Below, piece after piece: positions 9,086 through 61,628 of a stretch of 64,000 nucleotides of DNA. How positions within the stretch are numbered: the first letter of the stretch is position 1; the number at the start of each line of letters is the position of its first letter. The stretch comes from a virus. The DNA is taken from positions 3,738 to 67,737 of IMG/VR virus record IMGVR_UViG_3300042503_001396; one strand, given 5' to 3'. The notes below the pieces were generated by a model. It was not told where the DNA came from, searched no databases, and was given only the letters and a program-made list of their open reading frames with translations. The position numbers and the translations under genes are program-made.

Positions 9086-12000
9086 TTAGTATTTAATCAC
9101 TGGAAGCATTCCAACATATGGTGGAAGGTTTGCATTTGTTGTATTACCTGCAGTTCCTTCGTAATTAACTGTGATGTTTGCATATCCAGTACTTGTATTT
9201 CTCGTAAACTCAAAATTTGTTCGATCATCTGGGCTTCCACTTTGATTCTGTTCTGGACCACTACCTGATGGCCATTGCGATCCAACAAAATTGTGTGTAT
9301 GTCCTGAATCACTAGCAGTATGATTGTGATAAGGAATAATCGCGTCCTTATTACCACCAGTAACACCAGGAACTGCAGAATAACCGGCAAAATTATTAAC
9401 TAGATTTGGAAGTCTTCCTGCAGCACCATAAGTTGAACCTAAGAAACTGCGAAGAGATTGTAAAAGAGAAGCATTGACTCCTTGGAATGTGCCACTTGTA
9501 GGGATATCTGCACCGTTACAGATTAGATACCCTTCTGGAGCATGATATGTTGTTGCTCCAATTGTTGCGCTACCTCCTGTTGCAGTGTCTGCAGAAGACG
9601 CTGCCATATAGAAGAAAGAACCAATTGGAGTACCAGGTGCCCATTTAACACCAGTTGCTTGAGTATCATCTGCAGTTAATACTGTACCATTTGCACCAAC
9701 CGTAAGTCTTGCAGCAGTGTTATTTTCAGTTGCAACAAGAATCTGACCCTTTGTATCCCAATCAATATTAGAAACCAGAGATCCTTGTCCACCAAGAGCA
9801 ACAATAAAGCAATTGACACCAGATGCGGGAGGAGTTGTGAATCTAATTGTACTTGTATTTGCACCAGCAGAAGTTACAATTAAGAAGTCTGCACCAGGTT
9901 TTTGGATAACACCTCCTACAGATACAATTAAGTTTGCAGAACTTCCAGCAGGAATATATGCTGTTCCAGCAATACGAAGAGTGAAGTCTGTTGTAGACCC
10001 ATTAAAAGATCCGGAAATATCATCACAAATCAGAGAGTTTCCAAGTGGAAAATCTCCAGTAACTGATGCAGAGTCTGCAGGAATATATCCTAGAGCATTC
10101 TGAACTTCACGGAAAGTAATAAAGTCCTGTTCCCCATCAGCACGAAGCATTTTAAATGTTGGTGTTCCATTTAAAGAAACACTTTGGGGAGTAGTTGCCT
10201 TAAACTTGGGAGATGTGATTCCTTCAGAACCCAATACAGTAAGGGTACTTCCAATACTTGCATTTCCAGTTACAGTCAAACCAAGAGAAGTAACAGTCTT
10301 AGCAACTCCAACTCCACCTAATACTCTTAATGCACCTGTTGAAGTTGAAGTTGAATCTGTGAGATTTGATAGTAAAACACTTCCAGTAAATGCAGTGTTG
10401 CCAGCAACATTTAAGTTTTCACCAACTCCAACTCCACCCTTAACAGTCAGAGCACCTTTACCAGTTGAGTCTGATGAGGTAGTGTTTGTAACTCTGACTT
10501 GCCCACTAAAAGTGGAAGTATCTTTGCTTCTGATTTGTCTGTTAAATGTAACCGGACCATCAAACTGAGAGAGTACAGTACCAGAATCTCCACCTTCAAC
10601 GAGAAGTCTTTCCTTAACAGTTACTTCGTCATAAACAACGCTTGACTTAGAAGGATCTTCACCAGTGACAGTTGGTGATGGAATATCATAAGAAGTAACC
10701 TCACCAGATGATGAAGAAGTCTTTGTATTTCCACTAAAGAAGTCACCACTGTTATTCATTCCAGTGTATACAACAATACCACCCGATCTTTCTTGAGACT
10801 GAACTAAGAAATCTTCTCTTTCTGTGAGCGACTTGACTTGAACTTGTGGTAAACCTGTGGAGTAGTTGCCTGGGCCATATCCAAGATATTCAAAAGTATG
10901 TCCCGAAGCACGAAGAATCGAAGGTCTGCGGAATTCAACTGCAATTGGATTGATTTTACGAATCAAAGATCCTGCGTCGTGAGACTCTTTACGAGTTCCA
11001 AGAGAACCACGAATCACTGTAAATTGAGAATTATTACTTGAAGAGGTAATTCTCATAATTTCATTATCAACCTGAATATAAGATCCTAATGGGAATCTTG
11101 CATCAGTGCCAATTCCAGAGTTAATTGATGAAACTACTAAAGTATTTGCAGAGGAGTCATCTGAAATTGCCGTGGTCAGTCTTATAAATTCATTGCCATA
11201 GAATGAAACTTGACGAATACCAAAGTTTTCTTCTCTTACATCGGAAATCGCATCATTTGAAGAGAATCCGTGCTTGAGAATATAACCATCTACAGCACTC
11301 AAGGACTTATTAGTAATAGCAGTAAATGTGGTTACACCTACTCTTTCCTTTACTACGTAATCGCCAAGATTATTATTTGTAGAATTGATAACTCTAAACT
11401 TATTACCTTTCAACAATCCGTGAGGAGTTGCTGTTGTAAAGGTAGTAATACCTGTTGCAGAAATATAAGGTGAAGTACTAATTTTAGACGATGATCCAAC
11501 TACAAATGCATATTGCCCTGCGGTTGGTGTTGGGTCTCCAGAAGTCTTAGCAACTGAAATTTGTGTTTGGGAGTTAATTGCACTAATTCTATAATATCCA
11601 TCAGTTACTGTACCAACACCAGTAACTTGAACTACGTCACCAATATTTGTGGAGATTCCTGCTGTTGCAATTGTATATGTTGCATTTCCATTTCCAGCAC
11701 CAACTCTTGAAGAATCCAGATAGAGAACTTCACCATTTGTGTATCCAGAACCACCAGAAATAACTACTACAGAACTTACATTTCCTCCAGATTCTACAAC
11801 TACTTTTGCAGTTGCTCCCTTCCAAGTTCCTACAGAAGGATTTGCATCAGTGTTTAATAGTTTTACATCATAGTGAGTTCCAGGAATATAGTTTGTGTTG
11901 GGAGTATATAAAGTTCCTGTGACGACACTACCAAGTCCATGTCTTCTTCCAAATGTAAGAGTTGCACTTGTTGATGATACTGAAGAAACAGAAGAAATTG

Positions 12001-15000
12001 TTTGTCCAATTCCAAGAGCAATTGAAAGTTTATCTACAGTTTCTCTAGTAATACTTTTCTTCAAGTCACTTGTATTTGTGTCACCAATTGGAGCACGAAG
12101 AGAAAATGTCTTTGCAGATTGTGGATTTGCTTCAACATTATCTCTATCCAACTGAGGATAAAGATCTACAGGACTTTGAGAATACTCAAGGTTTGTAAAT
12201 TCATTTGTAATTTTATTACTTGCATTTAAGACATAAAGATGATAGATTCCATCTTGAGATCCTTGCACATAAGGAGAGATGACTTCATTACGATAAACAT
12301 ATAGATTTGATTGCCAATCATTTCTTTCAAATCTTGGCAGATCTCTAATTTGATCTGGTGTGGTTCTGGAATTAATATTGTTTGTGCTTGATGCTCCAGG
12401 AGTATGTGCTTTTCCATTTACATCTGTTGTCGAATGTGTAAATGACATATCATTTACAATTGATGCAACTGCAAACTTACCGTTATATCCACGATCATAT
12501 AAACCACTTGGGTTGCTACTGTCAGTTACATTGCGAATGATTACTAGATCACCAACATTTAAATTATGTGGTAATGAAGTTAATACTGTAACAGTAGTAG
12601 ACGCTAATGTGCAAGTAGTAATAAATCTTGGATTCTTATTATACTCAAAGTCAGTACTTGCAATACTTGTTCTAGTAAAATCATCTGATCTTGCGCCGGT
12701 TGTACTAGACTCCTGAATAATGAATCCATCTTCTGGATCCTTTGCACCATTAAGTTCTTTTGGAATGACGACTCTTACTTTATAAATCTTTTCATCCAAA
12801 CTTCTATCATCAACAATTCTCTTAACATAAGTAAGATCAGTTGTTTCAGATAGTCCTGCAACACCAAGAGTATTAATTTGACCATAGATTTGGTTTGTAG
12901 AATTGACAGTAATATACCAGTTTCCTGCTGTAGTATCAAACTGAATTGGAGATCCAATATCTCCTGCAGATTTATCAGAAACTCTACTATAAACTTTGAG
13001 TTGCTCTCCTCCATAAATTGTTAATGCTTCATTATTGAGAGCATTGGTAGATGAGGTTGCTAACTTGATTTGATTTGCAGATAAACCAGAAGTGATCGCA
13101 TATCCAACAGTATGTGGAGTTACATTTTCTGGCAAATCTCCAGTTTCACTGTTGATAATGATTTTTTCACCAGTTTGTAGTGTATGATTACTTGTAAAAG
13201 TTAGAGTAGAACTTGCTACAGTTGAAACATCATAAACTTTATAAGCACTTGTCACACCATCCTGCATATAAATGTCTGCAGAATATTCGGTGTTGTTGAT
13301 TGAAAGATAGAGTTTATCTCCGTTACGAGCACCAACACGATAACCCTGAGTGACACTGACTGGTAAACTATCTGTAGCGTTTAATCCATAAAGATATAAC
13401 TTATTTCCACTTGGATTGTATGTTGAATTAGTGGTTAGACCAACATCAATTGATAACCATTCAATATCCTCTTCTGTCGTTGTGTCAATATCTCTTGGTG
13501 GAATGATGGAAGTAATAAAGGCATTGTTGTCCTTATCAAATGCCTCTGCTTTGAATCCATCAGAGTTAAGTGATATCTGACCAAAGTTTGAGTTTGAGTT
13601 GGTAATAGAGGCGTCTGCACCCGACTCAAGATCAAAATGCTTATTAAAACCAATTGCAAAGACCGATACTATCTGAATAAAGGAGTCATTCGAAACCTTA
13701 ATATGACTGGTTTCCCATCCTTGTCTATAAATTGCATCAGGATCCAGGTGATAGACTTTTGTAGTATCTGTCTGCGATGCTCCTGTTGGTAGATCTCCAC
13801 CAATGACTGTTGTGTAATTTACACCATTATACTCTCTAGTGGAAGGATTATATTTTACAAAAGCACGATCGTCTTTTTGTAGAGACACAGCAGTAAACTG
13901 TGCAACAACCATTGAGCGGAAACCTGATGCTTTGCTACCATCAGCGTGCATTCCATTCATACCCCAGACGGATCTGAGAGAGCAGTTAAAGATATAAGGA
14001 GATGCTCCAGATACTGTATCTGTTTCTACCGTCACAGTTGCTCCAGTCACTAGTGGAGTTGGATCCATCGTGATTGGGAAAGATTCGAGTAAATATGTAA
14101 ATCTAGTTGCACTCAGAACATTTTGTACTTTTGTTGAAACATTATATGTTGATGTACTTACTCCTTTGATTTTAATTGGTGTTCCTGAAGTTAGATTATG
14201 ATCTTCTGTTGTTGTAACTGTAACTAAAGTAGTTGCAGTGGTACCATTTCCAGAAATAACTGATTGAATCTCAATTGGGTCAGAAGCAAACGCACCAACA
14301 ATTTCCCATTCTGGTGCCATTTTTGCAAAGTCTTCGTCACTTGCAGGAAACTTTGCGTCTACTGGAATTGGGCGATATGAATTGAAAGCATTTGAGAGTT
14401 TGCTGTAATACATATCAAGGTCAGTGAGACCATATGTACCAACTTCATTTACACCATCAGCATACTCAAAACAAGTCAGTTTATGGTGAGAAAATCTTGG
14501 AGTTGACTGATAATTACTTGTGAAGAATGATGGGTGAGTATAGACTAAACCAGACTCATCAGCATCAAAGAATGAAAACTGCCAGAAGTAACAAGCGCCA
14601 GTAACTCTAAAAATTGCAGATTTTTGTATTAGAGGATCTGTTGGATTTGGAACATACTTTGGTCTGACTTTTGTTTTTCTTAAATCGAGACCAACAATCG
14701 AAGTGCCTCTAGGTATAATGACACCACCATTGACACTATTAAACTTATAGAGAATATTATCGTCTTGTGTTAGATCAAAGTTAGAATCTAATTCTAATGA
14801 TAATGTAGTAAGTGCTGGATCTCCTGTACCACCAGATGGAGGAACAGCATATGCAACACCACTATTATTATAAATTGCATATCCAGGTCTATTATCAATT
14901 AAGTGCTCACCTGGCCAAACTAAAATTGTTGTTTTTTCGACTAAATCATTACCCTTTCCATTCACAAAAGAGAATCTTGCCGCTTCTAAAAGTGCTCTCT

Positions 15001-15136
15001 GAATGGTTTTAAAAGGTTGTGCAAGAGAATTACCAGTATTAGTAATCGAATCTGTAGCGTCTAAATCGTTAGGGTTGACATATAGTGTGCGCCCATCAGT
15101 ATTCTTAATGAAATTCGATAATTTGTTCAGAGGCAT
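9086..15136 (-). CDS. large tail fibre/structural protein with beta-helix and C-terminal collar domain
   Basis: 2016 aa; N-terminal PFKTIQRA and ASGHTFEY motifs shared with 22842 and 52596; C-terminal GYLICNG...NLPPY. Confidence 0.8.
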   Translation of the reverse strand: MPLNKLSNFIKNTDGRTLYVNPNDLDATDSITNTGNSLAQPFKTIQRALLEAARFSFVNGKGNDLVEKTTILVWPGEHLIDNRPGYAIYNNSGVAYAVPPSGGTGDPALTTLSLELDSNFDLTQDDNILYKFNSVNGGVIIPRGTSIVGLDLRKTKVRPKYVPNPTDPLIQKSAIFRVTGACYFWQFSFFDADESGLVYTHPSFFTSNYQSTPRFSHHKLTCFEYADGVNEVGTYGLTDLDMYYSKLSNAFNSYRPIPVDAKFPASDEDFAKMAPEWEIVGAFASDPIEIQSVISGNGTTATTLVTVTTTEDHNLTSGTPIKIKGVSTSTYNVSTKVQNVLSATRFTYLLESFPITMDPTPLVTGATVTVETDTVSGASPYIFNCSLRSVWGMNGMHADGSKASGFRSMVVAQFTAVSLQKDDRAFVKYNPSTREYNGVNYTTVIGGDLPTGASQTDTTKVYHLDPDAIYRQGWETSHIKVSNDSFIQIVSVFAIGFNKHFDLESGADASITNSNSNFGQISLNSDGFKAEAFDKDNNAFITSIIPPRDIDTTTEEDIEWLSIDVGLTTNSTYNPSGNKLYLYGLNATDSLPVSVTQGYRVGARNGDKLYLSINNTEYSADIYMQDGVTSAYKVYDVSTVASSTLTFTSNHTLQTGEKIIINSETGDLPENVTPHTVGYAITSGLSANQIKLATSSTNALNNEALTIYGGEQLKVYSRVSDKSAGDIGSPIQFDTTAGNWYITVNSTNQIYGQINTLGVAGLSETTDLTYVKRIVDDRSLDEKIYKVRVVIPKELNGAKDPEDGFIIQESSTTGARSDDFTRTSIASTDFEYNKNPRFITTCTLASTTVTVLTSLPHNLNVGDLVIIRNVTDSSNPSGLYDRGYNGKFAVASIVNDMSFTHSTTDVNGKAHTPGASSTNNINSRTTPDQIRDLPRFERNDWQSNLYVYRNEVISPYVQGSQDGIYHLYVLNASNKITNEFTNLEYSQSPVDLYPQLDRDNVEANPQSAKTFSLRAPIGDTNTSDLKKSITRETVDKLSIALGIGQTISSVSSVSSTSATLTFGRRHGLGSVVTGTLYTPNTNYIPGTHYDVKLLNTDANPSVGTWKGATAKVVVESGGNVSSVVVISGGSGYTNGEVLYLDSSRVGAGNGNATYTIATAGISTNIGDVVQVTGVGTVTDGYYRISAINSQTQISVAKTSGDPTPTAGQYAFVVGSSSKISTSPYISATGITTFTTATPHGLLKGNKFRVINSTNNNLGDYVVKERVGVTTFTAITNKSLSAVDGYILKHGFSSNDAISDVREENFGIRQVSFYGNEFIRLTTAISDDSSANTLVVSSINSGIGTDARFPLGSYIQVDNEIMRITSSSNNSQFTVIRGSLGTRKESHDAGSLIRKINPIAVEFRRPSILRASGHTFEYLGYGPGNYSTGLPQVQVKSLTEREDFLVQSQERSGGIVVYTGMNNSGDFFSGNTKTSSSSGEVTSYDIPSPTVTGEDPSKSSVVYDEVTVKERLLVEGGDSGTVLSQFDGPVTFNRQIRSKDTSTFSGQVRVTNTTSSDSTGKGALTVKGGVGVGENLNVAGNTAFTGSVLLSNLTDSTSTSTGALRVLGGVGVAKTVTSLGLTVTGNASIGSTLTVLGSEGITSPKFKATTPQSVSLNGTPTFKMLRADGEQDFITFREVQNALGYIPADSASVTGDFPLGNSLICDDISGSFNGSTTDFTLRIAGTAYIPAGSSANLIVSVGGVIQKPGADFLIVTSAGANTSTIRFTTPPASGVNCFIVALGGQGSLVSNIDWDTKGQILVATENNTAARLTVGANGTVLTADDTQATGVKWAPGTPIGSFFYMAASSADTATGGSATIGATTYHAPEGYLICNGADIPTSGTFQGVNASLLQSLRSFLGSTYGAAGRLPNLVNNFAGYSAVPGVTGGNKDAIIPYHNHTASDSGHTHNFVGSQWPSGSGPEQNQSGSPDDRTNFEFTRNTSTGYANITVNYEGTAGNTTNANLPPYVGMLPVIKY

Positions 15137-15510: not shown

Positions 15511-15583
15511 TAGGCGTGGTCGGATTCGAACCGACCCTGGAGGAGTTTTAAGCTCCCTGTCTCTGCCGCTGGACTACACGCCC
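15511..15583 (-). tRNA. tRNA-Leu(TAA), short variable loop
   Basis: acceptor GGGCGTG/CACGCCT, anticodon loop CTTAAAA, T loop TTCGAAT. Confidence 0.9.
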
Positions 15584-15594
15584 GTGTATGAGAC

Positions 15595-15624
15595 TATTAT
15601 AACTCAAAGAATCATAATAGTCAA
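15595..15624 (-). promoter_or_regulatory. sigma70-type promoter inside an inverted repeat
   Basis: TTGACT-N17-TATAAT; GACTATTAT/ATAATAGTC arms. Confidence 0.75.
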
Positions 15625-15625
15625 G

Positions 15626-15698
15626 TGCTCGTTACTGGGATCGAACCAGTCTATCAGGTCTTATGAGGACCGCGCTTTCGCCAGAGAGCTAAACGAGC
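15626..15698 (-). tRNA. tRNA with CAT anticodon (Ile2 or elongator Met)
   Basis: acceptor GCTCGTT/AACGAGC, anticodon loop CTCATAA, T loop TTCGATC. Confidence 0.85.
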
Positions 15699-15727
15699 AT
15701 TCGCTATTCGCAAATAGCAAATAGTTT

Positions 15728-16141
15728 TTATTCATTTAATTGTTTTCTTTTTTTATGATACCCAATTTTTTTATTTAAAGTTTTGTAAGTATCAGTTAAA
15801 GTATGACAATTTGGACATAGTACTCTTAAATTTTCCTTATATCCATTATCTCGGGAACCATTAATGTGATCAATTTCAAGATAAACAATTCCATTTATTG
15901 GATTTGGTTTTCCCCACCCACATTCTGTACATTTATAATTTGCTTCTTCAAGCAAATATTTTCTCACAAAATCACTTGGTCTACCATCTCCCTGTTTTCC
16001 AGTTATTTTTTTAGATAACCAATCAGTGATATTTTGTTTGTAGTAATCTTCTTGCTGGCATTTATTTGAACAATAAAATCCTTTTCCTTGAGATGGGAAA
16101 AAATCGAATGATTTACTGCAGTTTTTACATTGTCCTTGCAT
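15728..16141 (-). CDS. free-standing HNH endonuclease within the tRNA cluster
   Basis: N-terminal Zn-finger CxxC...CSxxC; CTECG...EIDHING...NLRVLCPNCH. Confidence 0.9.
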   Translation of the reverse strand: MQGQCKNCSKSFDFFPSQGKGFYCSNKCQQEDYYKQNITDWLSKKITGKQGDGRPSDFVRKYLLEEANYKCTECGWGKPNPINGIVYLEIDHINGSRDNGYKENLRVLCPNCHTLTDTYKTLNKKIGYHKKRKQLNE

Positions 16142-16195
16142 AATAGTTAGATCACTCTACACTTTTATTTATACTCTAAGTGTAGTTTAGAGTAA

Positions 16196-16283
16196 TACGA
16201 GTGCCTGGATTCGAACCAGGTCAAAGCCGCTAATCTGGCGGAAAGAGTTTATAAGACTCCTCTGACTACCAAGTCTCACTCGC
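16196..16283 (-). tRNA. tRNA-Ile(TAT) with long variable arm
   Basis: acceptor GCGAGTG/CACTCGT, anticodon loop CTTATAA, V-arm CCGC-CAGATTA-GCGG, T loop TTCGAAT. Confidence 0.8.
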
Positions 16284-17762: not shown

Positions 17763-18100
17763 TGTTCTTCTCCTGGTAATAACGTATTAATTGGTTGATT
17801 AAGCGGTGTAACTTGTGTTGGAACAATGCCTTGTTGAAGTGCTTGAACGTACAGTTGTTGATTTTCTTGATTTGCCTTTATGGTTTCATTTCTGAAAGAT
17901 TCAATAGCAGCACCGGTTTGCCTTTGTTGTTGTGAGTTTTCGATTGTAAGCATTGGCAACCAAGTAATTGCACATCCCCATTCATCAACTGGTTCTCCAG
18001 TATTTGGATTCATCCCCCGAATTTGAGTAAACCAAGAACACTGAAGTCCTATACAATCTTTTTTAATCAGGGGACAATATTTTCCTTGTTCAAGTTTCAT
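17759..18100 (-). CDS. fibre-associated Cys-containing protein
   Basis: CPLIKKDC...CSWF...WGCA; translationally coupled to the fibre gene. Confidence 0.7.
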   Translation of the reverse strand: MKLEQGKYCPLIKKDCIGLQCSWFTQIRGMNPNTGEPVDEWGCAITWLPMLTIENSQQQRQTGAAIESFRNETIKANQENQQLYVQALQQGIVPTQVTPLNQPINTLLPGEEQ

Positions 18101-21100
18101 TAATTTTTACTGCAAAGTATGATATCTATGTATTGGACTGCAAAGTCCATTGCTGTTCCAGTGAATCCGTGATCGTGAGATCCACCACCTCCTGAAGCAT
18201 TAGTAGTAAAGGTGTGACTGTGAGCACCCGCACCACCTGTTGTCAAAGAGTAAAAGGGTTCTGAGATTGTACCATTACCAGGGCCAAGAGTTTCTCCCCC
18301 TCCACCATAACTATGAGCGTGATCTCCTACTCCATCAGTAGTTCCACTGTGAGTATGACTCGGTATCTGAGCAGTAGTCAAAGTGGTAGATCCAACAGTT
18401 CCTGAAGGAGTTCTGGAGGCAAATACTGTTGTAAATGCAGTAGAACCACCAGATCCACCACCAGTTCCACTTACAACTCTAAGTGCTTTATTGTTATGAG
18501 TAGTTACTTGTGTCCATCCTGTAGGTGCTGATGCTTGATAGAATAATAAAGTTGTTCCAGTAACAAAAGTTTCTGGTGAAGTTCCTGGTGGACCAGGAGG
18601 ACCAGCTGGTCCTGTGGGTCCAGTAGGTCCAGTAGGTCCAGTAGGTCCAGTAGGTCCAGGAGGACCAGTAACACTAGGACCAGGAGGTCCTGTGGGTCCA
18701 GTAGGTCCAGTAGGTCCAGTGGGTCCAGTAGGTCCTACTTGCTGAACAAATGTTACATTTGCAGTTCCACTTGGTCCTGCAGTTGCTGTAACTCCTGGAC
18801 CAATAAAATTGATCGTTTTAGTTCCTAAAGTTGAACCTACTATTGTACCTTCTTCTTGTACCGTAACACCATCAATAGCAAAAGATGAAATATTTGATGA
18901 TGTTACAACTTCAGACCAAGCAGTAGTTCCATTTCCATTTGTGGATCTATAATAAAGATTTTGTGAGTAAAATGGCGCTGCTAATTGTAGGGCATAATAA
19001 TTTGCTTCATTAGAATGTGTGGAAGTAATTAAATGATACCAAGTATTAGTCGTTGTTGGCCAACCCTCTGCGGTTGTTGCATCATCTGTTTGCCAGAATC
19101 CCGAATTAAGTCGAGTAGTTATATCATCTCTATCAGAAGAACTTTGAGCAGTATTTAAGTAGGTTGCAGTAGTTGCAGAAGTTGCATTACCAGTAATAGT
19201 ACCAACAAATGTATTTGCGTAGACATTATTCCACTTATTAGAAGTACCACCTAAATTTAATGTTCCATCAGTAGAAGGTAGTACACTAGAATTAATTCTA
19301 GAAGTAAAAGTAACTGTATCTGTACTAGCATTACCTAAAAATACATTACCATTAACAGTAAGATTGTTTCCAACAGTAAGATTATTTGAGGTACTTACGT
19401 CAGTTGCTTCAAGATAAATGTCATCATCAGCATCATTTTGAATACCTATATGCAATCTTGTGTTTTCTCCAGATTCCACATAATACCGAATAAATGCCAC
19501 ATCACCCGAACCACCTCCAGGATCGGGTTGCCAATAAATTCCTTTATCTGTACCAGAACCAAAAGAAGGTCTAAAGAATCCATTAACAGTAGCAATACCA
19601 GTAACTAATAAGTTACCAGTTTGAAGATCTGTGGTAGTAATATTATTTAAACCATCAAAAGTCTTTGCATAAACTGTATCCCAACGATTAGAAGAACCGC
19701 CAAGATTTAAAGTTCCATTTGCACCTGGTATTATTGCGGTAGAATTTACGGTTCCAATTTTAGTGTTAGCAATGTAAAAATCATGAGTAACATTTGAATG
19801 ATATTGAATGTCACCAACATTGCCAACACCAAATCCATATTTTTCATTATTATCGTTATAAAGATAAATTTTTAGTTTATCTCTTGTTGTTCCATTAGAA
19901 AAAGTATTTCCAAGATTAATATTATATGGTGTTGCTGTTTGACCAGAAGAATCGGTTCCTAGATTTATATTTCCGCCAATACTCAGTAAATTAGTACTTG
20001 GATTATAAGAAATTCCAGCATCAGTATATAAACTTTCATATGCAGCAGGACTATTATCAGAATCTACAAATGTTGGATAAAATGTATTATCCGTAGAGGT
20101 TCTGATTGTTTTTATGTTGTCGGCATTTGTAGCGGTTCCAGAAAATGCTCCATTAAAAGTATTTGCCCAAACATTATCCCACCTATTATCAGAACTACCT
20201 AAGTTTCTGGTTCCAGTAGGAATAACATTTGTATTGATTGATCCATTAACGGATATGGTATCAGTGCTAGCATCACCTAAAGTTACATTACTCTTAAATG
20301 TTACATTAGAATCAAATGTAGCAATTCCAGTGACACTTAATTGATCATCGATTATTGTAAGTCCACCAGCAGAGTCAATTGTTAAATTTCCTGTTGTGGT
20401 ATCAATTTCATTGTCGCCCGTAATACCGATTTGAATATTATCAATATAAGCACCACCATTAGCATCAATATAACTTGTAAAGGTGCTAATACCAGAAACA
20501 AATAACTGAGATATGCTAGTAACACCTAATGTAGCAATACCAGTAACAAGTAAATCTCTTGTAGATACAATTCCAGTAAAAAACCCATTTCTAGCAAAAA
20601 TTTCATCTTGATAGATATCTTGACTTAAATATAAATTTCCACCAACATATAAATCCCCACCTGTTGTTGTAATACCACCTGCGGAGGCAAGAGTTGTAAC
20701 TCCGACAATAGATACTGAACCTCCAACATTGAGATTTTTTTCAATTCCTACACCACCTTCAGTGATAATTGACCCAGTATTCTTACTTGTAGATTCGGTT
20801 GCATCATTAATATAAACTGCATCATTAATCTGAGTAGTTCCTCCAGAGGAATCTAAAATGAGATTACCAGTATTCGTACTAACGGTATTTGTATCAATTT
20901 TAATATTATCAAATGTTCCGACACCAGTAACATTTAAATTGTTAATGATAACTTGAGTATCAAATGTAGAAATTCCAGATACTTTGAGTCGATTTAATGT
21001 TGTAGATTGATAAACTTCAAGATTTTGAGTTGTAGTAAGTCCAGTTACACCTAAATCACTATTAATATTAACTTTTTGTAAGAATGTTGAAATACCAGTT

Positions 21101-22161
21101 ACATAAAGTTGAGATACATCAATTGCACCATTAAACTTGGATGCGGTTACGATTCCTGTAAAGAATGCACTTGTTCCTGTTACAAATCCAATAGTAGTAA
21201 CACCAGTAACTACAAGATTGCGAGTTGTTGAAGTTCCAGATACTGCAAGAGTTGAAGTTGTCGTAACACCAGTTACATTGAGATTATCAATAGTTGTGCC
21301 ACCCTTAAAGGATGATATTCCTAAAACATCAAGTAAAACTTTTGGTTGAGTACTACCAATACCAACTCTACTATTAACCTCATCAAAAACAAAATTAGGA
21401 GCACCATCTACTAATCCCACATTATTATGAAACTGTATGTTCTGATAGGTTCCTCCAGCACCAGATCTAATTGAACTTTGATTGATCCAAGTTAATCCAC
21501 CAAAATTATTTTTTACTAAAACTTCATTAGTATTTCCAGGTTGATTATTATAATCATAAATTGTGCCAGTAAGTCTTAAATTACCTCTAACATCAAGTTT
21601 TTGTGTTGGATTTGTGGTTCCAATACCGACAGAACCAATATCAGTCGTAGTAATTACGGTTCCACCAGCACCTACAATAATCCTATCACCAGCAGATAAA
21701 AGACCTATAGAGGAGTCAAACTTTAATTTTGATGATGTTGAAAATTCATTCGCAGTGTTAAATATTATTTCTTGATTATTTCCTGGAGCAAACACTCTAA
21801 TTGTAGAAAGATTGCTAGATGCTACTGAAACCGATGCTGTTATTGCCGCACCAACAAAATTAAGTTGAGTTATACTACTTAATGTTCCTACAAGAACTCC
21901 ATCATCAAAAACACTAATTGAACCAGGTATAATTCCACCTTGACTAGGAATCCAATATCTTTCTCCAGAATTACTTCCTTGAACAGAAACAATAATGTAT
22001 TGTTGCCCTGGAGGAACAGATTTAGCACCAATTGAAGAAGGTCCTACTAGTGGATCTCCAAGATTCGGTTCTGCATTTTCAATAGATAAGTACCTATATC
22101 TATCTGATTGTAACTTGGACTGTGATGTTACTCTAGTGCGTCCAGAAAGATACTTTGGCAT
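18100..22161 (-). CDS. tail fibre with collagen-like segment
   Basis: 1353 aa; beta repeats, (GPT/GPP)n, C-terminal APTGW...HxH tip. Confidence 0.85.
18583..18735 (-). repeat. 9-nt collagen-like repeats (Gly-Pro-Thr/Pro)
   Basis: tandem GGACCTACT-type units. Confidence 0.9.
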
Positions 22162-35970: not shown

Positions 35971-36408
35971 ATGTCATATAAAGGAAAATATAAACCATCC
36001 TTTCCAGATAAGTATCATGGAGATGTAACTAACATTATATACAGATCTTTATGGGAGAGAAAGTTTTGTGTTTACTGTGATACAAATGAAAAAATAATTG
36101 AATGGTCATCGGAAGAAAAATGTGTCCCCTATCGTTCCCCATTAGACGGAAAGATTCACAGATACTTTCCAGACTTCCTCATCAAAGTCAAAGAGTCCGA
36201 TGGTAGTATCAAAAAATATATGATTGAGATTAAACCATCCAAGCAAACTGTTCCACCTCCAAAACCAAAAAGACAAACTCAGAAGTATATTTCTGAAGTC
36301 TATGAGTACGCTAAAAACCAATCAAAATGGGAATCTGCAAGAGAATGGTGTGCTGATAATGGATATGAGTTCAAAGTAATCACCGAGCATGAATTAGGTA
36401 TCAAGTAA
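35971..36408 (+). CDS. gp4: head completion nuclease
   Basis: YKGKYKP..P.KY.GD...YRSLWE...HRYFPDF...IEIKP. Confidence 0.9.
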   Translation: MSYKGKYKPSFPDKYHGDVTNIIYRSLWERKFCVYCDTNEKIIEWSSEEKCVPYRSPLDGKIHRYFPDFLIKVKESDGSIKKYMIEIKPSKQTVPPPKPKRQTQKYISEVYEYAKNQSKWESAREWCADNGYEFKVITEHELGIK

Positions 36409-58482: not shown

Positions 58483-58508
58483 ATTTTGTTATGAATTGAA
58501 AACATTAT

Positions 58509-59213
58509 TCAATATTTTTCAAGGGCATAGATTCCATTTTTTTCCACAATTGCAGAGCAAGTATCACACCAATCACCACAGCACATATACAAAAGTTTAT
58601 TAAAGTATCTAATGTTGCCGTGATGTATATGCCCACAGATTACACCATCATATTTCTTATCTCTTTGAATACAATATGATGCAATATCAGTCTCATATTG
58701 GTTAATATAATTTTTTCCTCTCACCGTATTCTTTAACGCATAGACTAAAGAAAATTTAAAGAACTTCTCTAACCAAAAACTGAGTGGTGTGATGAATTCA
58801 TACCCTTTATTAAAGATAAGTTGTTTCCAAGACCCAGAAGAATACTCCGAATACTTATCTCCATGAATACACAAAAACTTATTACCTTTTGAATCTTTAT
58901 GAGTATATTCGTCTACCATTCGGAAGTTCTTGTGTTCAAAATTAGTATAACGACGAATTTCTGCTTCGTGATTTCCAAGAATATAAATGACTTCTGTTCC
59001 TTTCTTTGCCAGGTTTAGAATCTGATGAACACATTTTGTATGTTCTTTTGTCCAACGAGTATTATATTTTTCCATACAGTGAATATCAATAATATCACCA
59101 ACCAATACTAACTTTTTGGTTTTTAAGTTTTTAAGAAAATTATAGAATTTTTCCGTATTACATCTAGGAGTCCCAAGGTGAACATCAGAAATAAAAACTG
59201 TATCGTAAGTCAT
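58509..59213 (-). CDS. metallophosphoesterase (LpxH-like)
   Basis: SDVHLG, GDIID, GNHE, HGD, GHIH, GDW. Confidence 0.85.
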   Translation of the reverse strand: MTYDTVFISDVHLGTPRCNTEKFYNFLKNLKTKKLVLVGDIIDIHCMEKYNTRWTKEHTKCVHQILNLAKKGTEVIYILGNHEAEIRRYTNFEHKNFRMVDEYTHKDSKGNKFLCIHGDKYSEYSSGSWKQLIFNKGYEFITPLSFWLEKFFKFSLVYALKNTVRGKNYINQYETDIASYCIQRDKKYDGVICGHIHHGNIRYFNKLLYMCCGDWCDTCSAIVEKNGIYALEKY

Positions 59214-59215
59214 AA

Positions 59216-59377
59216 TCAGAATCTTGATGGAGTGTATTCCATATCTTCAAGAATATTATCTAGTATCTCCCCATATTCTTTGAATCGTTTGTCTCCTGCA
59301 ATAAAACGACGCTGACGCATCCATACTGCATCAGCAAGAAGTTTGATTTGCTCTTCTGTAAGAGTTAAGGTTTTCAT
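59216..59377 (-). CDS. hypothetical protein
   Basis: ATG at 59377 (MKTLTLTEEQ). Confidence 0.65.
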   Translation of the reverse strand: MKTLTLTEEQIKLLADAVWMRQRRFIAGDKRFKEYGEILDNILEDMEYTPSRF

Positions 59378-59418
59378 AAGTAAGAAGTAACTGTTGTATG
59401 TATTAGAGATTTTTTTTC

Positions 59419-59538
59419 TCATTCATAAATCATCCCAACAGTCAGTAAGACAAAGCAAAGTACGGTGAATACCATCATACCTACACCTGCCCAGATTATC
59501 CAGTTAGGCATAGGTTCGTTTTGGGTATTATGACTCAT
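59419..59538 (-). CDS. single-helix membrane peptide (39 aa)
   Basis: MSHNTQNEPMPNWIIWAGVGMMVFTVLCFVLLTVGMIYE. Confidence 0.55.
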   Translation of the reverse strand: MSHNTQNEPMPNWIIWAGVGMMVFTVLCFVLLTVGMIYE

Positions 59539-59539
59539 A

Positions 59540-59689
59540 TTAAGGAATCCAAATTCCTTTGCCTTTCAACCACTTCATTGCACTTTCCAAATCACCATTT
59601 GTTTTTTGGAGTGCCACACAACAATCCATTCTTCCCACTCCAGTTTCCCACTGAAGTTTTTTTACTAGTTTATAAGTAATTGCAGTCAT
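59540..59689 (-). CDS. EF-Ts N-terminal (UBA-like) domain mini-protein (49 aa)
   Basis: MTAITYKLVKKLQWETGVGRMDCCVALQKTNGDLESAMKWLKGKGI aligns without gaps to the EF-Ts N-terminus; TTGACA-N17-TAAAAT upstream. Confidence 0.7.
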   Translation of the reverse strand: MTAITYKLVKKLQWETGVGRMDCCVALQKTNGDLESAMKWLKGKGIWIP

Positions 59690-59735
59690 AATTCTTTGCG
59701 GTTTATGAGTATTTTAGTGGGGTTGGGGTCTTATG

Positions 59736-60458
59736 TCAAGGTGTGTTGGATTTTGTTTTGCCAGTATTAACTTCCTTAGTTCTCTCTATAATTTTATCTC
59801 TACAAATACCTTCACCATAATTTGGATTATTTTCTCCAGACCAAGCACCCCTTTCTTTTGCTTTTTGAGATACTTTGTCCCTTACTTCTGGATTTTCCAT
59901 AGGATTTCCATAATCATTCCTATGCCTTATACCAACATTCATTTCATCTAAAGATTTTCTAATCCAAACCATTCCACATCCAAGAATTGATTTTATTTCT
60001 CTTAGTGTTTTACCCTCAGTATAAAGTAGAGCAATTTTTTCTGGTGGGTATTTTTTTCTCAACTCCTTTATTTTATTTTCATTCACTACTTGTAAATGAT
60101 TTTTCGCTTTCATTATTTTACTATGATTTGGTCTCTTCTTTCCTCTACGCATATCTCCCATTTTTTTCCTTTGTTCTTCCGTATAAACATATCCAGAGGG
60201 ACCATCTCCACCATCAGTTAAATTATACAGAATACCAGTTCCCAAATCTTTTCTACCAAAGACATTAATCATATAGATTTCGTGCTTAAATGCTTCTTCT
60301 TCTGTAAGATTTTTCTTTAAGATTAAAATTCTATTCCTTGATGGAACATAAGCACTATGTCTTTTTCTATCATATGCTCTTTTGCCTTTACCCTTACCAA
60401 TATAATAAGGAGTTCCATCCTCTCTCAAATAAGCATAAGTATAAAATACATTTTTCAT
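59736..60458 (-). CDS. free-standing GIY-YIG-like homing endonuclease (NUMOD3/HTH modules)
   Basis: YTYAYLREDG.PYYIGKG; paralogue of 42516; GENNPNYG module; TATAAATA late promoter. Confidence 0.85.
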   Translation of the reverse strand: MKNVFYTYAYLREDGTPYYIGKGKGKRAYDRKRHSAYVPSRNRILILKKNLTEEEAFKHEIYMINVFGRKDLGTGILYNLTDGGDGPSGYVYTEEQRKKMGDMRRGKKRPNHSKIMKAKNHLQVVNENKIKELRKKYPPEKIALLYTEGKTLREIKSILGCGMVWIRKSLDEMNVGIRHRNDYGNPMENPEVRDKVSQKAKERGAWSGENNPNYGEGICRDKIIERTKEVNTGKTKSNTP

Positions 60459-60496
60459 TACTTCTATCCCAAAGTTAGTTCTATACTTATTTATAC

Positions 60497-60521
60497 AAAA
60501 AAGGAACCCCGAAGAGTTCCC
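60497..60521 (-). terminator. psbA terminator
   Basis: GGAACTC-TTCG-GGGTTCC-T6. Confidence 0.85.
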
Positions 60522-60548: not shown

Positions 60549-61628
60549 TCAACCGATAGTTGGTGCAGTTAGAGCAACAGGAGTTGCTTCAACGGCTGCC
60601 AAATCCAAAGGAAAATTATGTGCGTTTCTTTCGTGAATTACTTCAAATCCCAAGTTTGCTTTTCCAAGAACATCTGCCCAGGTTGGAATTGGACGACTTT
60701 GTGTATCAAGAATGCTTTGTTGGAAATTAAATCCGTTCAGGTTGAACGCCATCGTAGAAACACCAAGAGCGGTGAACCAGATGCCTACAACTGGCCAGGC
60801 AGCAAGGAAGAAGTGCAGACTACGACTATTGTTGAAGGAAGCATATTGGAAAATAAGACGACCGAAATAACCGTGAGCAGCAACGATGTTATAAGTCTCT
60901 TCTTCTTGACCGAACTTATAACCGTAGTTCTGTGACTCATTCTCAGTGGTTTCACGAACCAGAGAGGAAGTAACCAGAGAACCGTGCATAGCACTGAACA
61001 GAGAACCACCGAACACACCAGCAACTCCAAGCATATGGAAGGGGTGCATCAGAATATTGTGCTCTGCCTGGAACACAAGCATGTAGTTAAAAGTACCAGA
61101 GATACCCAGAGGCATTGCATCAGAGAAAGAACCTTGACCGAAAGGATAGACCAGGAACACTGCACTCGCAGCAGCAACAGGTGCGCTATAAGCAACCATA
61201 ATCCAAGGACGCATACCTAGACGGTAAGATAGTTCCCATTCACGACCCATATAGCAGTAGATGCCGATGAGGAAGTGGAAGACAACAAGTTGGAAAGGTC
61301 CACCATTGTAAAGCCATTCATCAAGACTTGCTGCTTCCCAGATGGGATAGAAGTGAAGTCCGATTGCGTTAGAAGAAGGAATAACAGCACCAGAGATGAT
61401 GTTGTTTCCGTACATTAGAGAACCAGCAACTGGTTCACGAATGCCATCAATGTCCACAGGGGGAGCACCGATGAATGCGATGATGAAACAAGTAGTTGCT
61501 GCAAGAAGGCAAGGCACCATCAATACACCAAACCACCCCACATAGATGCGGTTGTCTGTTGAAGTAATCCAAGAACAGAATTGTTCCCAAGTATTTGATT
61601 GTCGTTGTTGTGAAAGTGTAGCAGTCAT
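60549..61628 (-). CDS. psbA: photosystem II D1 protein
   Basis: full-length D1; Y161, D170, E189, H190, H332, E333 and D342 present; no intron. Confidence 0.99.

What the first reader, a model, noticed from the sequence alone, without database searches (positions are those of the whole stretch)
59540..59689. Stand-alone EF-Ts N-terminal domain mini-protein
Seen: a 49-aa ORF below the ORF-track cutoff with its own sigma70 promoter. It matches the EF-Ts pattern IT..LVK.LR..TG.GMMDC..AL....GD...A..WL..KG without gaps, but with R>Q and M>R changes. Known: this UBA-like domain contacts the G domain of EF-Tu. Inference: a captured host domain acting as an EF-Tu binder, competitor or shield against EF-Tu-targeting defence; it may instead be a decaying fragment.
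Basis: partly seen in the sequence, partly recalled or inferred. Interest (0 to 1): 0.7.

Follow-up and report, generated by a model that had tools for sequence, protein, structure and literature searches.

The report
Stand-alone EF-Ts N-domain phage mini-protein
A freshwater cyanophage carries, just downstream of its photosystem gene psbA, a conserved 49-residue gene that is a remodelled copy of only the first, EF-Tu-touching domain of the bacterial translation factor EF-Ts; it is a real gene family of unknown function rather than a decaying scrap.

Summary
Window 59540-59689 (-) is a 49-aa ORF that aligns without gaps, from Met1, to the N-terminal UBA-like domain of EF-Ts. A family profile hits E. 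coli EF-Ts residues 1-46 at E 6.6e-12, and the AF2 model superposes at 0.4-0.6 A. A TTGACA-17-TAAAAT site lies upstream, and its hexamers are conserved in two related loci.

It is not a decaying fragment. A profile search found 34 protein clusters of 48-52 aa, 51-98% identical, with 13 invariant positions. In all 5 loci with DNA the gene follows psbA or psbD and one intervening ORF, which is endonuclease-type in 4 of the 5. None of the 34 clusters has an NCBI source, it was not found in the cultured-phage collection, and no PHROG matches.

The gene cannot be an exchange factor, because it ends at the domain boundary. EF-Tu binding is untested, and the sequence data partly argue against the canonical mode. 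The positions nearly invariant in EF-Ts (R13, G19, M20, M21, D22, K24) are among the most variable here, while W14 and E15 are invariant and the net charge rises to about +3.6.

My best reading, at 0.4, is an exchange-dead EF-Tu-directed binder. Close behind, at 0.35, is a UBA-like module retargeted to another partner. I rate it a new variant of a known kind, of moderate interest.

The parts
59540..59689 (-). 49-aa mini-protein gene: a stand-alone, remodelled EF-Ts N-terminal (UBA-like) domain
   Evidence: ORF. Homology to EF-Ts N-termini. Predicted three-helix fold, pLDDT 85.8 and 87.2, matching EF-Ts chains at rmsd 0.4-0.6 A. Family of 34 clusters.
59711..59739 (-). sigma-70-type promoter-like site TTGACA-17-TAAAAT; it overlaps the stop codon of the upstream endonuclease ORF
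   Evidence: Scan, 11 of 12 matches. Both hexamers are conserved in L001 and L002 while the spacer diverges. Function is inferred, not shown.
59419..59538 (-). 39-aa hydrophobic mini-ORF (phrog_7358) that starts 1 nt after the mini-gene's stop; likely co-transcribed
   Evidence: ORF. phrog_7358 E 3.8e-18. Same arrangement in L001. Co-transcription is inferred from spacing.
59216..59422 (-). 68-aa ORF (phrog_2064), next gene of the same-strand string, overlapping the previous ORF by 4 nt
   Evidence: Homologue follows the mini gene in L002. Present without the mini gene in S-SRM01.
58509..59213 (-). 234-aa calcineurin-like metallophosphoesterase, conserved downstream neighbour
   Evidence: Pfam Metallophos E 3.1e-13. 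Same protein in L122. Annotated as UDP-2,3-diacylglucosamine diphosphatase in S-SRM01.
59736..60458 (-). 240-aa homing-endonuclease-type ORF between psbA and the mini gene (context)
   Evidence: phrog_314 homing endonuclease E 1e-10, phrog_15526 E 1.8e-33, NUMOD3 weak.
60549..61628 (-). psbA (photosystem II D1), the conserved upstream landmark (context)
   Evidence: 359-aa ORF. 85-89% identical to cyanobacterial psbA. megablast hits to cyanophage psbA.

Best explanation
The ORF is a genuine, conserved gene of freshwater T4-like cyanophages. It descends from the 5' end of a bacterial tsf gene and encodes only the three-helix UBA-like N-terminal domain of EF-Ts, from the original Met1 to just past K44-G45-I46. 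It lacks the whole core and coiled-coil of EF-Ts, so it cannot catalyse nucleotide exchange. That much follows from the sequence and from the established architecture of EF-Ts. It is probably made early, from a host-type promoter, as the first gene of a string of small ORFs downstream of psbA; this step is inferred. The mechanism I commit to is that it acts as an exchange-dead, domain-only ligand of the G domain of host EF-Tu, around helix D. That is the only known partner surface of this domain. By occupying it the protein would compete with EF-Ts, L7/L12 or helix-D-anchored enzymes, and so tune or shield EF-Tu during infection. This step is inferred and untested. The family has been remodelled: W14 and E15 are invariant, positions 11 and 39 have switched from acidic to basic, Y/W47 is gained, and net charge is about +3.6. 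Any EF-Tu contact would therefore differ from the canonical one. The confidence of 0.4 refers to the EF-Tu-binder mechanism; that the ORF is a real, conserved, EF-Ts-N-derived phage gene I hold at about 0.95.
For: Homology and fold: E 6.6e-12 to E. coli EF-Ts 1-46; pLDDT 85.8 and 87.2, the second from an alignment of 31 minis only; top 15 PDB rows are all EF-Ts chains, TMq 0.76-0.86, rmsd 0.4-1.6 A. Real gene: 34 clusters at 87-118 bits, then a gap to 58 bits or less for EF-Ts fragments. There are 34 unique sequences of 48-52 aa, pairwise 51-98% identical, with 13 invariant positions. The ORF is intact in an independent DNA run. Conserved position: in 5 of 5 loci with DNA the gene follows psbA or psbD and one intervening ORF, which matches a homing-endonuclease-type family in 4 of the 5. 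No exchange parts: the protein ends at residue 49, and no other EF-Ts_N match was found in the 67.7-kb record. Partial retention of the EF-Ts signature: K10 in 32/34, T16 34/34, G17 25/34, D22 27/34, C23 33/34, A26-L27 34/34, G32 34/34, K44 34/34. Several members keep the full G-A-G-M-M-D-C-K-K-A-L (P0168, P0182, L121; P0178 with S for A). Helix D of EF-Tu is the contact site for EF-Ts and L7/L12 and bears glutamates, and EF-Ts largely prevents EF-Tu ADP-ribosylation by a helix-D-anchored toxin (PMC9825190, passages read). The minis' higher positive charge (+3.6 against +0.27) would suit an acidic helix. Defence systems that cleave or use EF-Tu exist: Lit, type IV Thoeris, Avs7 (PMC12803255, passages read). 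Promoter-like site with conserved hexamers.
Against: No binding evidence of any kind was obtained. The positions nearly invariant in EF-Ts N-domains are among the most variable in the minis. R13 is 98% in EF-Ts and 0/34 in minis. M20 is 96% against 9/34. K24 is 96% against 13/34. Entropy is 0.11-0.31 bits in EF-Ts and 0.97-2.20 bits in minis at positions 13, 19-22 and 24. Host EF-Tu is highly conserved (28 cyanobacterial G domains, 87% mean column identity), so such variability is not what a fixed EF-Tu interface predicts. By recall only, E. coli R12, M19 and M20 are helix-D contacts. Pairwise dN/dS among the 4 intact genes with DNA is 0.30-0.99, on only about 28 synonymous sites, so whole-gene purifying selection is not demonstrated that way. 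One copy (L001) carries a 1-base deletion in the A7 run. An isolated N-domain may bind EF-Tu too weakly to matter (recalled, not checked). The Pfam EF-Ts_N score is below the cut-off.
Confidence: 0.4

Rival explanations
1. Retargeted UBA-like adaptor. The EF-Ts N-domain served only as a stable three-helix scaffold. The phage family has lost the EF-Tu interface and uses a new surface (W14, E15, K/R11, K/R39, Y/W47) to bind another host or phage protein, or possibly nucleic acid.
For: Constraint has swapped between the two families. Positions 13, 19-22 and 24 go from near-invariant to variable, while positions 14 and 15 go from variable (1.46 and 1.92 bits) to invariant. W14 and E15 are 34/34, K/R39 33/34, R/K11 32/34, Y/W47 30/34, against E/D, K, D/E, E/D and A/S in EF-Ts. 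Net charge is +3.6 against +0.27, and aromatics 3.1 against 1.1 per domain. UBA-like folds bind many partners: NAC, Mex67 and ubiquitin-binding UBA domains appear lower in the fold list.
Against: No alternative partner is indicated by any result. Some family-specific residues could be structural caps for a truncated domain rather than an interface (inference from helix geometry). A salt-bridge swap between positions 15 and 39 is not backed by covariation in EF-Ts: 11 of 12 EF-Ts rows with E15 keep D/E39. Several members retain the full EF-Ts G-A-G-M-M-D-C-K-K-A-L motif.
Confidence: 0.35
2. Passenger of the endonuclease hot spot. The mini gene persists because it holds or flanks the homing site of the variable endonuclease ORFs between psbA/psbD and itself, and has little function of its own.
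For: In 4 of 5 loci the ORF immediately upstream matches a homing-endonuclease-type family, and the families differ between loci: phrog_314/NUMOD3, NUMOD3, NUMOD3+HTH and Endonuclease_7. In L121 the mini gene's start overlaps that ORF's stop.
Against: The endonuclease ORFs differ while the mini gene stays. Length and 13 invariant residues are kept over 51-98% identity. The closest cultured relative, S-SRM01, has psbA, endonucleases and the downstream genes but no mini gene, so the endonucleases do not need it.
Confidence: 0.07
3. Translation booster. It acts like EF-Ts and speeds GDP/GTP exchange on EF-Tu, as was proposed in print for other phage EF-Ts fragments.
For: This idea was raised for Caulobacter phage Colossus gp247 and Lactococcus Ceduovirus gp21 (PMC3556154 and PMC7150918, passages read). 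EF-Tu level limits photosystem II repair in Synechocystis (PMC6800327, abstract seen in listing), and the gene sits next to psbA.
Against: The protein ends at residue 49 and has none of the EF-Ts core (subdomain N with the exchange-driving Asp/Phe, as described in PMC3556154) or coiled coil. No further EF-Ts piece is in the record.
Confidence: 0.03
4. Decaying, non-functional fragment of a captured tsf gene.
For: One copy (L001) is frameshifted in a homopolymer run. Pairwise dN/dS reaches 0.93-0.99 in 2 of 6 pairs. Expression is not shown.
Against: 34 clusters all keep the same start, 48-52 aa length and 13 invariant residues at 51-98% identity. The gene position is conserved in 5 loci. The ORF is intact in an independent DNA run. 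The L001 change is a 1-base homopolymer difference in a metagenome contig and may be an assembly error.
Confidence: 0.03

Closest known systems
N-terminal (UBA-like, 'TS-N') domain of bacterial EF-Ts (Pfam PF25025 EF-Ts_N / PF00627; E. coli EF-Ts residues 1-46 in PDB 1EFU, 4PC1-7)
   Same: Gapless alignment from Met1. About 48% identity to E. coli and up to 67% between family members and picocyanobacterial EF-Ts. Same predicted three-helix fold at rmsd 0.4-0.6 A. Shared residues: I4, L12, T16, C23, A26, L27, G32, W40, L41, K44, G45.
   Different: It stands alone and stops 3-7 residues after the domain, with no core, dimerisation or coiled-coil parts. EF-Ts-invariant R13 is absent in 34/34, and M20 and K24 are mostly replaced. 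W14 and E15 are invariant. Charges are reversed at positions 11 and 39, and there is an aromatic at 47.
Sinorhizobium phage phiN3 gp159, annotated 'elongation factor Ts-like protein' (59 aa, KR052482 96279-96458)
   Same: A roughly 50-60 aa stand-alone ORF in a T4-like phage, labelled EF-Ts-like, among small ORFs.
   Different: Very distant: 13.6 bits to PF25025, Foldseek E 0.35, rmsd 4.5 A, 29% identity. It was not found by tblastn with the window protein at E<=0.01. It lacks the W-E-T signature and has a different host and context (next to tRNA genes). I saw no functional study, and no search for one by name was made.
Caulobacter phage Colossus gp247 and Lactococcus Ceduovirus gp21 (phage-encoded truncated EF-Ts-like proteins)
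   Same: Phage genes made of a piece of EF-Ts, discussed as possible translation modulators (PMC3556154 and PMC7150918, passages read).
   Different: They hold other parts of EF-Ts. gp247 (98 aa) has core subdomain N with the F81 equivalent. gp21 resembles the C-terminal part. The cyanophage protein has only the N-terminal UBA-like domain.
UBA domains of NAC, Mex67/TAP and ubiquitin-pathway proteins
   Same: Same three-helix bundle class. They appear in the fold list from rank 17 down, with TMq 0.6-0.75. Pfam UBA E 2.1e-3.
   Different: Much lower sequence identity (20-37%) and weaker scores than every EF-Ts chain. The Pfam UBA score of 18.3 is below the cut-off of 22.4.

Membership tests
EF-Ts N-terminal domain (Pfam PF25025 EF-Ts_N) | Score over the curated Pfam cut-off (33.2 bits) | tested here: not met
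   20.9 bits, E 3.6e-4 for the window protein. Some relatives carry the precomputed PF25025 label.
EF-Ts N-terminal domain (homology in the wider sense) | Significant, full-length, gapless sequence similarity to EF-Ts residues 1-46 | tested here: met
   Family profile against PDB: E 6.6e-12 to E. coli EF-Ts 1-46, and 8 of 10 hits are EF-Ts. phmmer: 912 hits at E<=1e-3. tblastn: 8 of 8 hits are tsf genes.
EF-Ts N-terminal domain | Three-helix UBA-like fold | tested here: met
   AF2 models give H6-16, H20-29, H34-44, with pLDDT 85.8 (mixed alignment) and 87.2 (minis only). Foldseek top 15 rows are EF-Ts chains, rmsd 0.4-1.6 A. These are predictions, not solved structures.
EF-Ts N-terminal domain | Conserved L-R-x-x-T-G-A/V-G-M-M-D-C-K-K-A-L signature (motif as seen in 129 EF-Ts rows) | tested here: not met
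   Window: L-Q-W-E-T-G-V-G-R-M-D-C-C-V-A-L. In the family, R13 is 0/34, M20 9/34, M21 14/34, K24 13/34. T16, C23, A26 and L27 are kept.
Elongation factor Ts (tsf, NCBIfam TIGR00116), a functional exchange factor | Core domain (subdomains N and C) and dimerisation/coiled-coil parts | tested here: not met
   The protein is 49 aa and ends right after the N-domain. No other EF-Ts_N match in the record. Host-type EF-Ts is 218-219 aa counted from the Met within open frames of 234-283 aa.
Elongation factor Ts | Binds EF-Tu and accelerates GDP release | not testable with these tools
   Needs a binding assay and an exchange assay.
Ubiquitin-associated (UBA) domain, Pfam PF00627 | Score over the curated cut-off (22.4 bits) | tested here: not met
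   18.3 bits, E 2.1e-3, covering only residues 22-41.
Known phage protein families (PHROGs v4) | Match to any PHROG | tested here: not met
   0 families at E<=0.01. Its neighbours match phrog_7358 and phrog_2064.

The most novel reading that the evidence does not exclude
The family is a psbA-linked early phage factor that docks on helix D of host EF-Tu without exchanging nucleotide. This would shield EF-Tu from EF-Tu-directed defences (proteases such as Lit or type IV Thoeris, or helix-D-anchored ADP-ribosyltransferases), or bias elongation toward D1 synthesis in the light. Its variable patch (positions 13, 17-21, 24-25) would evolve in an arms race with such host factors. It would be the first domain-only mimic of a translation factor used by a phage as an anti-defence or translation-tuning device.
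Probability: 0.15. Interest if true: 0.8.

Novelty: new variant of a known kind. Interest (0 to 1): 0.55.

Why it matters
Phages are known to carry pieces of host genes. Scattered genome papers have noted truncated EF-Ts-like ORFs without testing them. Here the piece is exactly one interaction domain, and it is kept as a family of at least 34 sequence clusters in uncultured freshwater cyanophages. It always sits beside the photosystem genes, and its constraint pattern is clearly shifted relative to EF-Ts. If it binds EF-Tu, it gives a compact natural tool for blocking helix D, the site shared by EF-Ts, L7/L12 and some toxins. It would also link phage photosynthesis genes with control of elongation, which limits D1 repair in cyanobacteria (PMC6800327, abstract seen in listing). 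If it binds something else, it is a clean example of a translation-factor domain recruited as a scaffold. Either outcome is testable with a 49-residue peptide. No paper in the searched library links EF-Ts with cyanophages (0 papers each). Supplementary files of cyanophage genome papers could not be read and might list such ORFs.

Tried and rejected
(1) Complex prediction of the mini-protein (alignment A2) with the G domain (residues 1-215) of a Cyanobium EF-Tu (alignment A3 of 28 cyanobacterial sequences) scored 0.00 and 0.00. The verdict was 'no answer' and controls were not run. This is no evidence either way.

(2) Expression. Three RNA-library runs were laid. One contig of X18 (262 nt, 59364-59625) overlaps the last 86 nt of the ORF with no difference there; its 12 differences all lie at 59379-59485. 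X19 and X20 gave nothing over the ORF. All were assembled contigs and DNA carry-over cannot be excluded, so transcription is not shown.

(3) Related loci. The search for related loci in viral contigs with the 4-sequence alignment found none. With the 31-sequence alignment it found 2. The single metagenome scan found 2. DNA is therefore available for only 5 copies.

(4) Pairwise dN/dS on 4 intact genes was too noisy to use: 0.30-0.99 on about 28 synonymous sites.

(5) Donor lineage. Mean identity of 136 EF-Ts N-domains to the minis spans only about 0.53-0.56 at the top, and Cyanobium-type sequences rank 10-30. The question is not resolved.

(6) A compensating salt-bridge swap (K15/D39 to E15/K39) is not supported by covariation within EF-Ts.

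(7) Literature on which EF-Ts residues touch EF-Tu. Searches found nothing usable, and PMC2890729 is not held. The contact list R12/M19/M20 is recalled only.

(9) The antisense ORF 59521..59679 (+), 52 aa, was considered and dropped. L002 has only a 36-aa antisense ORF there, and 56 of 65 larger ORFs in the window are on the minus strand.

(10) The ESM Atlas listing shows 30 feature hits: clusters of 59-88 members of 49-53 aa, with EF-Ts_N on 10-17% of members. This is a lead only, without alignments.

Full report
WHAT IS THERE. Window 59540..59689 (minus strand) is a 49-codon ORF with an ATG start and a TAA stop. It lies in a string of minus-strand genes. In order these are: psbA (60549-61628); a 240-aa homing-endonuclease-type ORF (59736-60458; phrog_314 E 1e-10); the mini ORF; a 39-aa hydrophobic ORF starting 1 nt after its stop (phrog_7358, E 3.8e-18); a 68-aa ORF (phrog_2064); a calcineurin-like metallophosphoesterase; then talC-like and zwf-like ORFs.

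The window is part of a 67.7-kb virus record estimated 28% complete. It encodes gp32, gp59, T4 baseplate proteins, PhoH, ThyX, 6-phosphogluconate dehydrogenase and three tRNAs, so it is a T4-like cyanomyovirus. Its psbA is closest (89%) to a Cyanobium genome. In addition, 17 coded DNA runs, 16 of them labelled lake water metagenome, hold at least half of the sampled words of the 2-kb stretch.

CHECK OF THE OBSERVATION. The likeness to the EF-Ts N-terminal domain is real and gapless from Met1.
- Pfam EF-Ts_N alone is sub-threshold (20.9 against 33.2 bits).
- phmmer against 1.84 billion representatives gave 912 hits at E<=1e-3. The listed ones are EF-Ts N-termini, or plastid-type tandem EF-Ts proteins that score higher through 2-4 stretches.
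- tblastn against 50,697 phage records hit only true tsf genes in 8 records that evidently hold bacterial DNA, and no cyanophage.
- A profile of 31 family members hits E. coli EF-Ts residues 1-46 at E 6.6e-12.
- Two AF2 models give the same three helices at pLDDT 85.8 and 87.2. One used a mixed alignment and one an alignment of minis only. Their 15 best PDB matches are EF-Ts chains, with rmsd 0.4-0.6 A for E. coli. No Foldseek row reaches E 1e-3, as expected for 49 residues.

The promoter-like site TTGACA-17-TAAAAT at 59739..59711 is confirmed. The region has no excess of such sites. However, both hexamers are kept in L001 and in the 66%-identical L002 while spacer and leader differ.

A CONSERVED FAMILY, NOT A FRAGMENT. 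A first word-based search found 3 relatives. A profile of 7 found 49 proteins at E<=1e-3 among 288 candidates. Of these, 34 score 87-118 bits, and the remaining 15 (58 bits or less) are pieces of ordinary EF-Ts.

I trimmed four over-called N-termini to the conserved Met. The 34 clusters plus the window then give 34 unique sequences of 48-52 aa, 51-98% identical pairwise. M1, I4, L12, W14, E15, T16, A26, L27, G32, A37, W40, L41 and K44 are invariant. Ten of the 34 are auto-labelled 'elongation factor Ts' by one source. None has an NCBI source, and PHROGs has no match.

DNA was obtainable for five copies. In all five the gene follows psbA (window, L001, L121, L122) or psbD (L002) and one intervening ORF. 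That ORF matches a homing-endonuclease-type family in four loci, and the families differ between loci: phrog_314/NUMOD3, NUMOD3, NUMOD3+HTH and Endonuclease_7. The L001 ORF has no Pfam match.

The closest cultured phage by the neighbouring gene, S-SRM01, has psbA, endonucleases, the phrog_2064 homologue and the phosphoesterase, but no mini gene. An independent DNA run holds the ORF letter for letter.

Evidence on the other side:
- L001 has A6 instead of A7 and is therefore frameshifted.
- Pairwise dN/dS is 0.30-0.99 on about 28 synonymous sites.
- Expression is not shown.

HOW IT DIFFERS FROM EF-Ts. I compared the minis with 129 EF-Ts N-domains. These were all non-mini proteins then held that scored above 80 in a gapless BLOSUM62 match to the window protein, 129 of 148. 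The set was 132 after later searches.

| Position | EF-Ts N-domains | Minis |
|---|---|---|
| 13 | R 98% | never R (V, E, Q, M, K) |
| 20 | M 96% | M 9/34 |
| 24 | K 96% | K 13/34 |
| 14 | E/D 92% | W 34/34 |
| 15 | K 67% | E 34/34 |
| 11 | E/D 75% | R/K 32/34 |
| 39 | D/E 94% | K/R 33/34 |
| 47 | A/S 88% | Y/W 30/34 |

Column entropy at positions 13, 19-22 and 24 is 0.11-0.31 bits in EF-Ts but 0.97-2.20 bits in the minis. Positions 14 and 15 go the opposite way, from 1.46 and 1.92 bits to 0. Mean net charge is +3.6 against +0.27, and aromatics are 3.1 against 1.1 per domain. A subset (P0168, P0182, the L121 copy; P0178 with S for A) still has G-A-G-M-M-D-C-K-K-A-L.

MECHANISM. Shown: the protein is only the N-domain. 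It has none of the core that drives nucleotide release (described in PMC3556154), so it cannot be an exchange factor.

From the literature: helix D of EF-Tu is the docking site of EF-Ts and of L7/L12. A toxin that anchors there is largely blocked by EF-Ts (PMC9825190). Several defence systems cleave or use EF-Tu (PMC12803255).

Inferred: the mini-protein most likely still addresses EF-Tu, as a non-catalytic ligand that competes at or near helix D (confidence 0.4). The shifted constraint pattern is the main argument against this. It supports the rival in which the fold was kept and the partner changed (0.35). Which EF-Ts residues contact EF-Tu (E. coli R12, M19, M20) is my recollection of the 1996 structure paper and was not verified here. 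Lesser rivals are an endonuclease-site passenger (0.07), a translation booster (0.03) and a dead fragment (0.03).

COMPARISON AND NOVELTY. The domain is known, and phage-borne pieces of EF-Ts have been noted. Colossus gp247 holds core subdomain N. Ceduovirus gp21 holds the C-terminal part. phiN3 gp159 is a 59-aa 'EF-Ts-like' ORF, which is only remotely similar (13.6 bits; Foldseek E 0.35).

I found no paper linking EF-Ts and cyanophages (0 papers each) and none on a stand-alone EF-Ts N-domain. Supplements were closed. I therefore rate it a new variant of a known kind, with interest 0.55. It is a well-defined, abundant, untested mini-protein family with a clear and cheap experimental path. No function has yet been demonstrated.

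Noticed in passing
window 59736-60458; L001 4087-4797; L002 4266-4916; L121 2795-3424; L122 1462-1890: The slot between psbA/psbD and the mini gene holds a different ORF in each locus. Four match homing-endonuclease-type families: phrog_314/NUMOD3, NUMOD3, NUMOD3+HTH and Endonuclease_7. The L001 ORF has no Pfam match. The slot looks like an endonuclease insertion hot spot.
   Followed up: partly
L001 2628-4005; L122 157-1372; L121 1322-2190: psbA is whole in the window, but in the related loci it is split into pieces. LAGLIDADG-type ORFs lie between the pieces in L001 (weak match, E 0.0075) and L122 (E 8.2e-9), suggesting introns.
   Followed up: no
L001 4862-5011: This 98%-identical copy of the mini gene has six A instead of seven in the homopolymer run, which shifts the frame. 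It also carries one G-to-T change. It is either an assembly error or a true pseudogene.
   Followed up: partly
window 59419-59538 (-): A 39-aa hydrophobic ORF (phrog_7358) starts 1 nt after the mini gene's stop. L001 has the same pair. L002 has an unrelated 44-aa hydrophobic ORF at that place.
   Followed up: no
window 15511-16283 (-): Three tRNA genes: Leu(taa), Met(cat) and Ile(tat).
   Followed up: no
window 9086-15136 (-) and 18100-22161 (-): Very long ORFs of 2016 and 1353 aa. The first has no Pfam match at 1e-5. The second has only a collagen-repeat match. They are probably tail fibre or structural proteins.
   Followed up: no
window 35971-36408 (+): A 145-aa ORF with a TnsA-like endonuclease N-terminal domain (E 5.7e-24) sits among baseplate genes.
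   Followed up: no
L125 1480-1659 (KR052482 96279-96458): Sinorhizobium phage phiN3 gp159 is 59 aa and annotated 'elongation factor Ts-like protein'. It lies just upstream of tRNA-Asn and tRNA-Met. It is a far more diverged stand-alone UBA-like ORF.
   Followed up: partly
window 58500-60500 in coded runs: Near-identical DNA occurs in 17 coded runs, 16 of them labelled lake water metagenome, from different studies. In run X2 depth rises about fivefold over 59371-59504, which suggests that the small ORFs there are shared with other phages in that sample.
   Followed up: no
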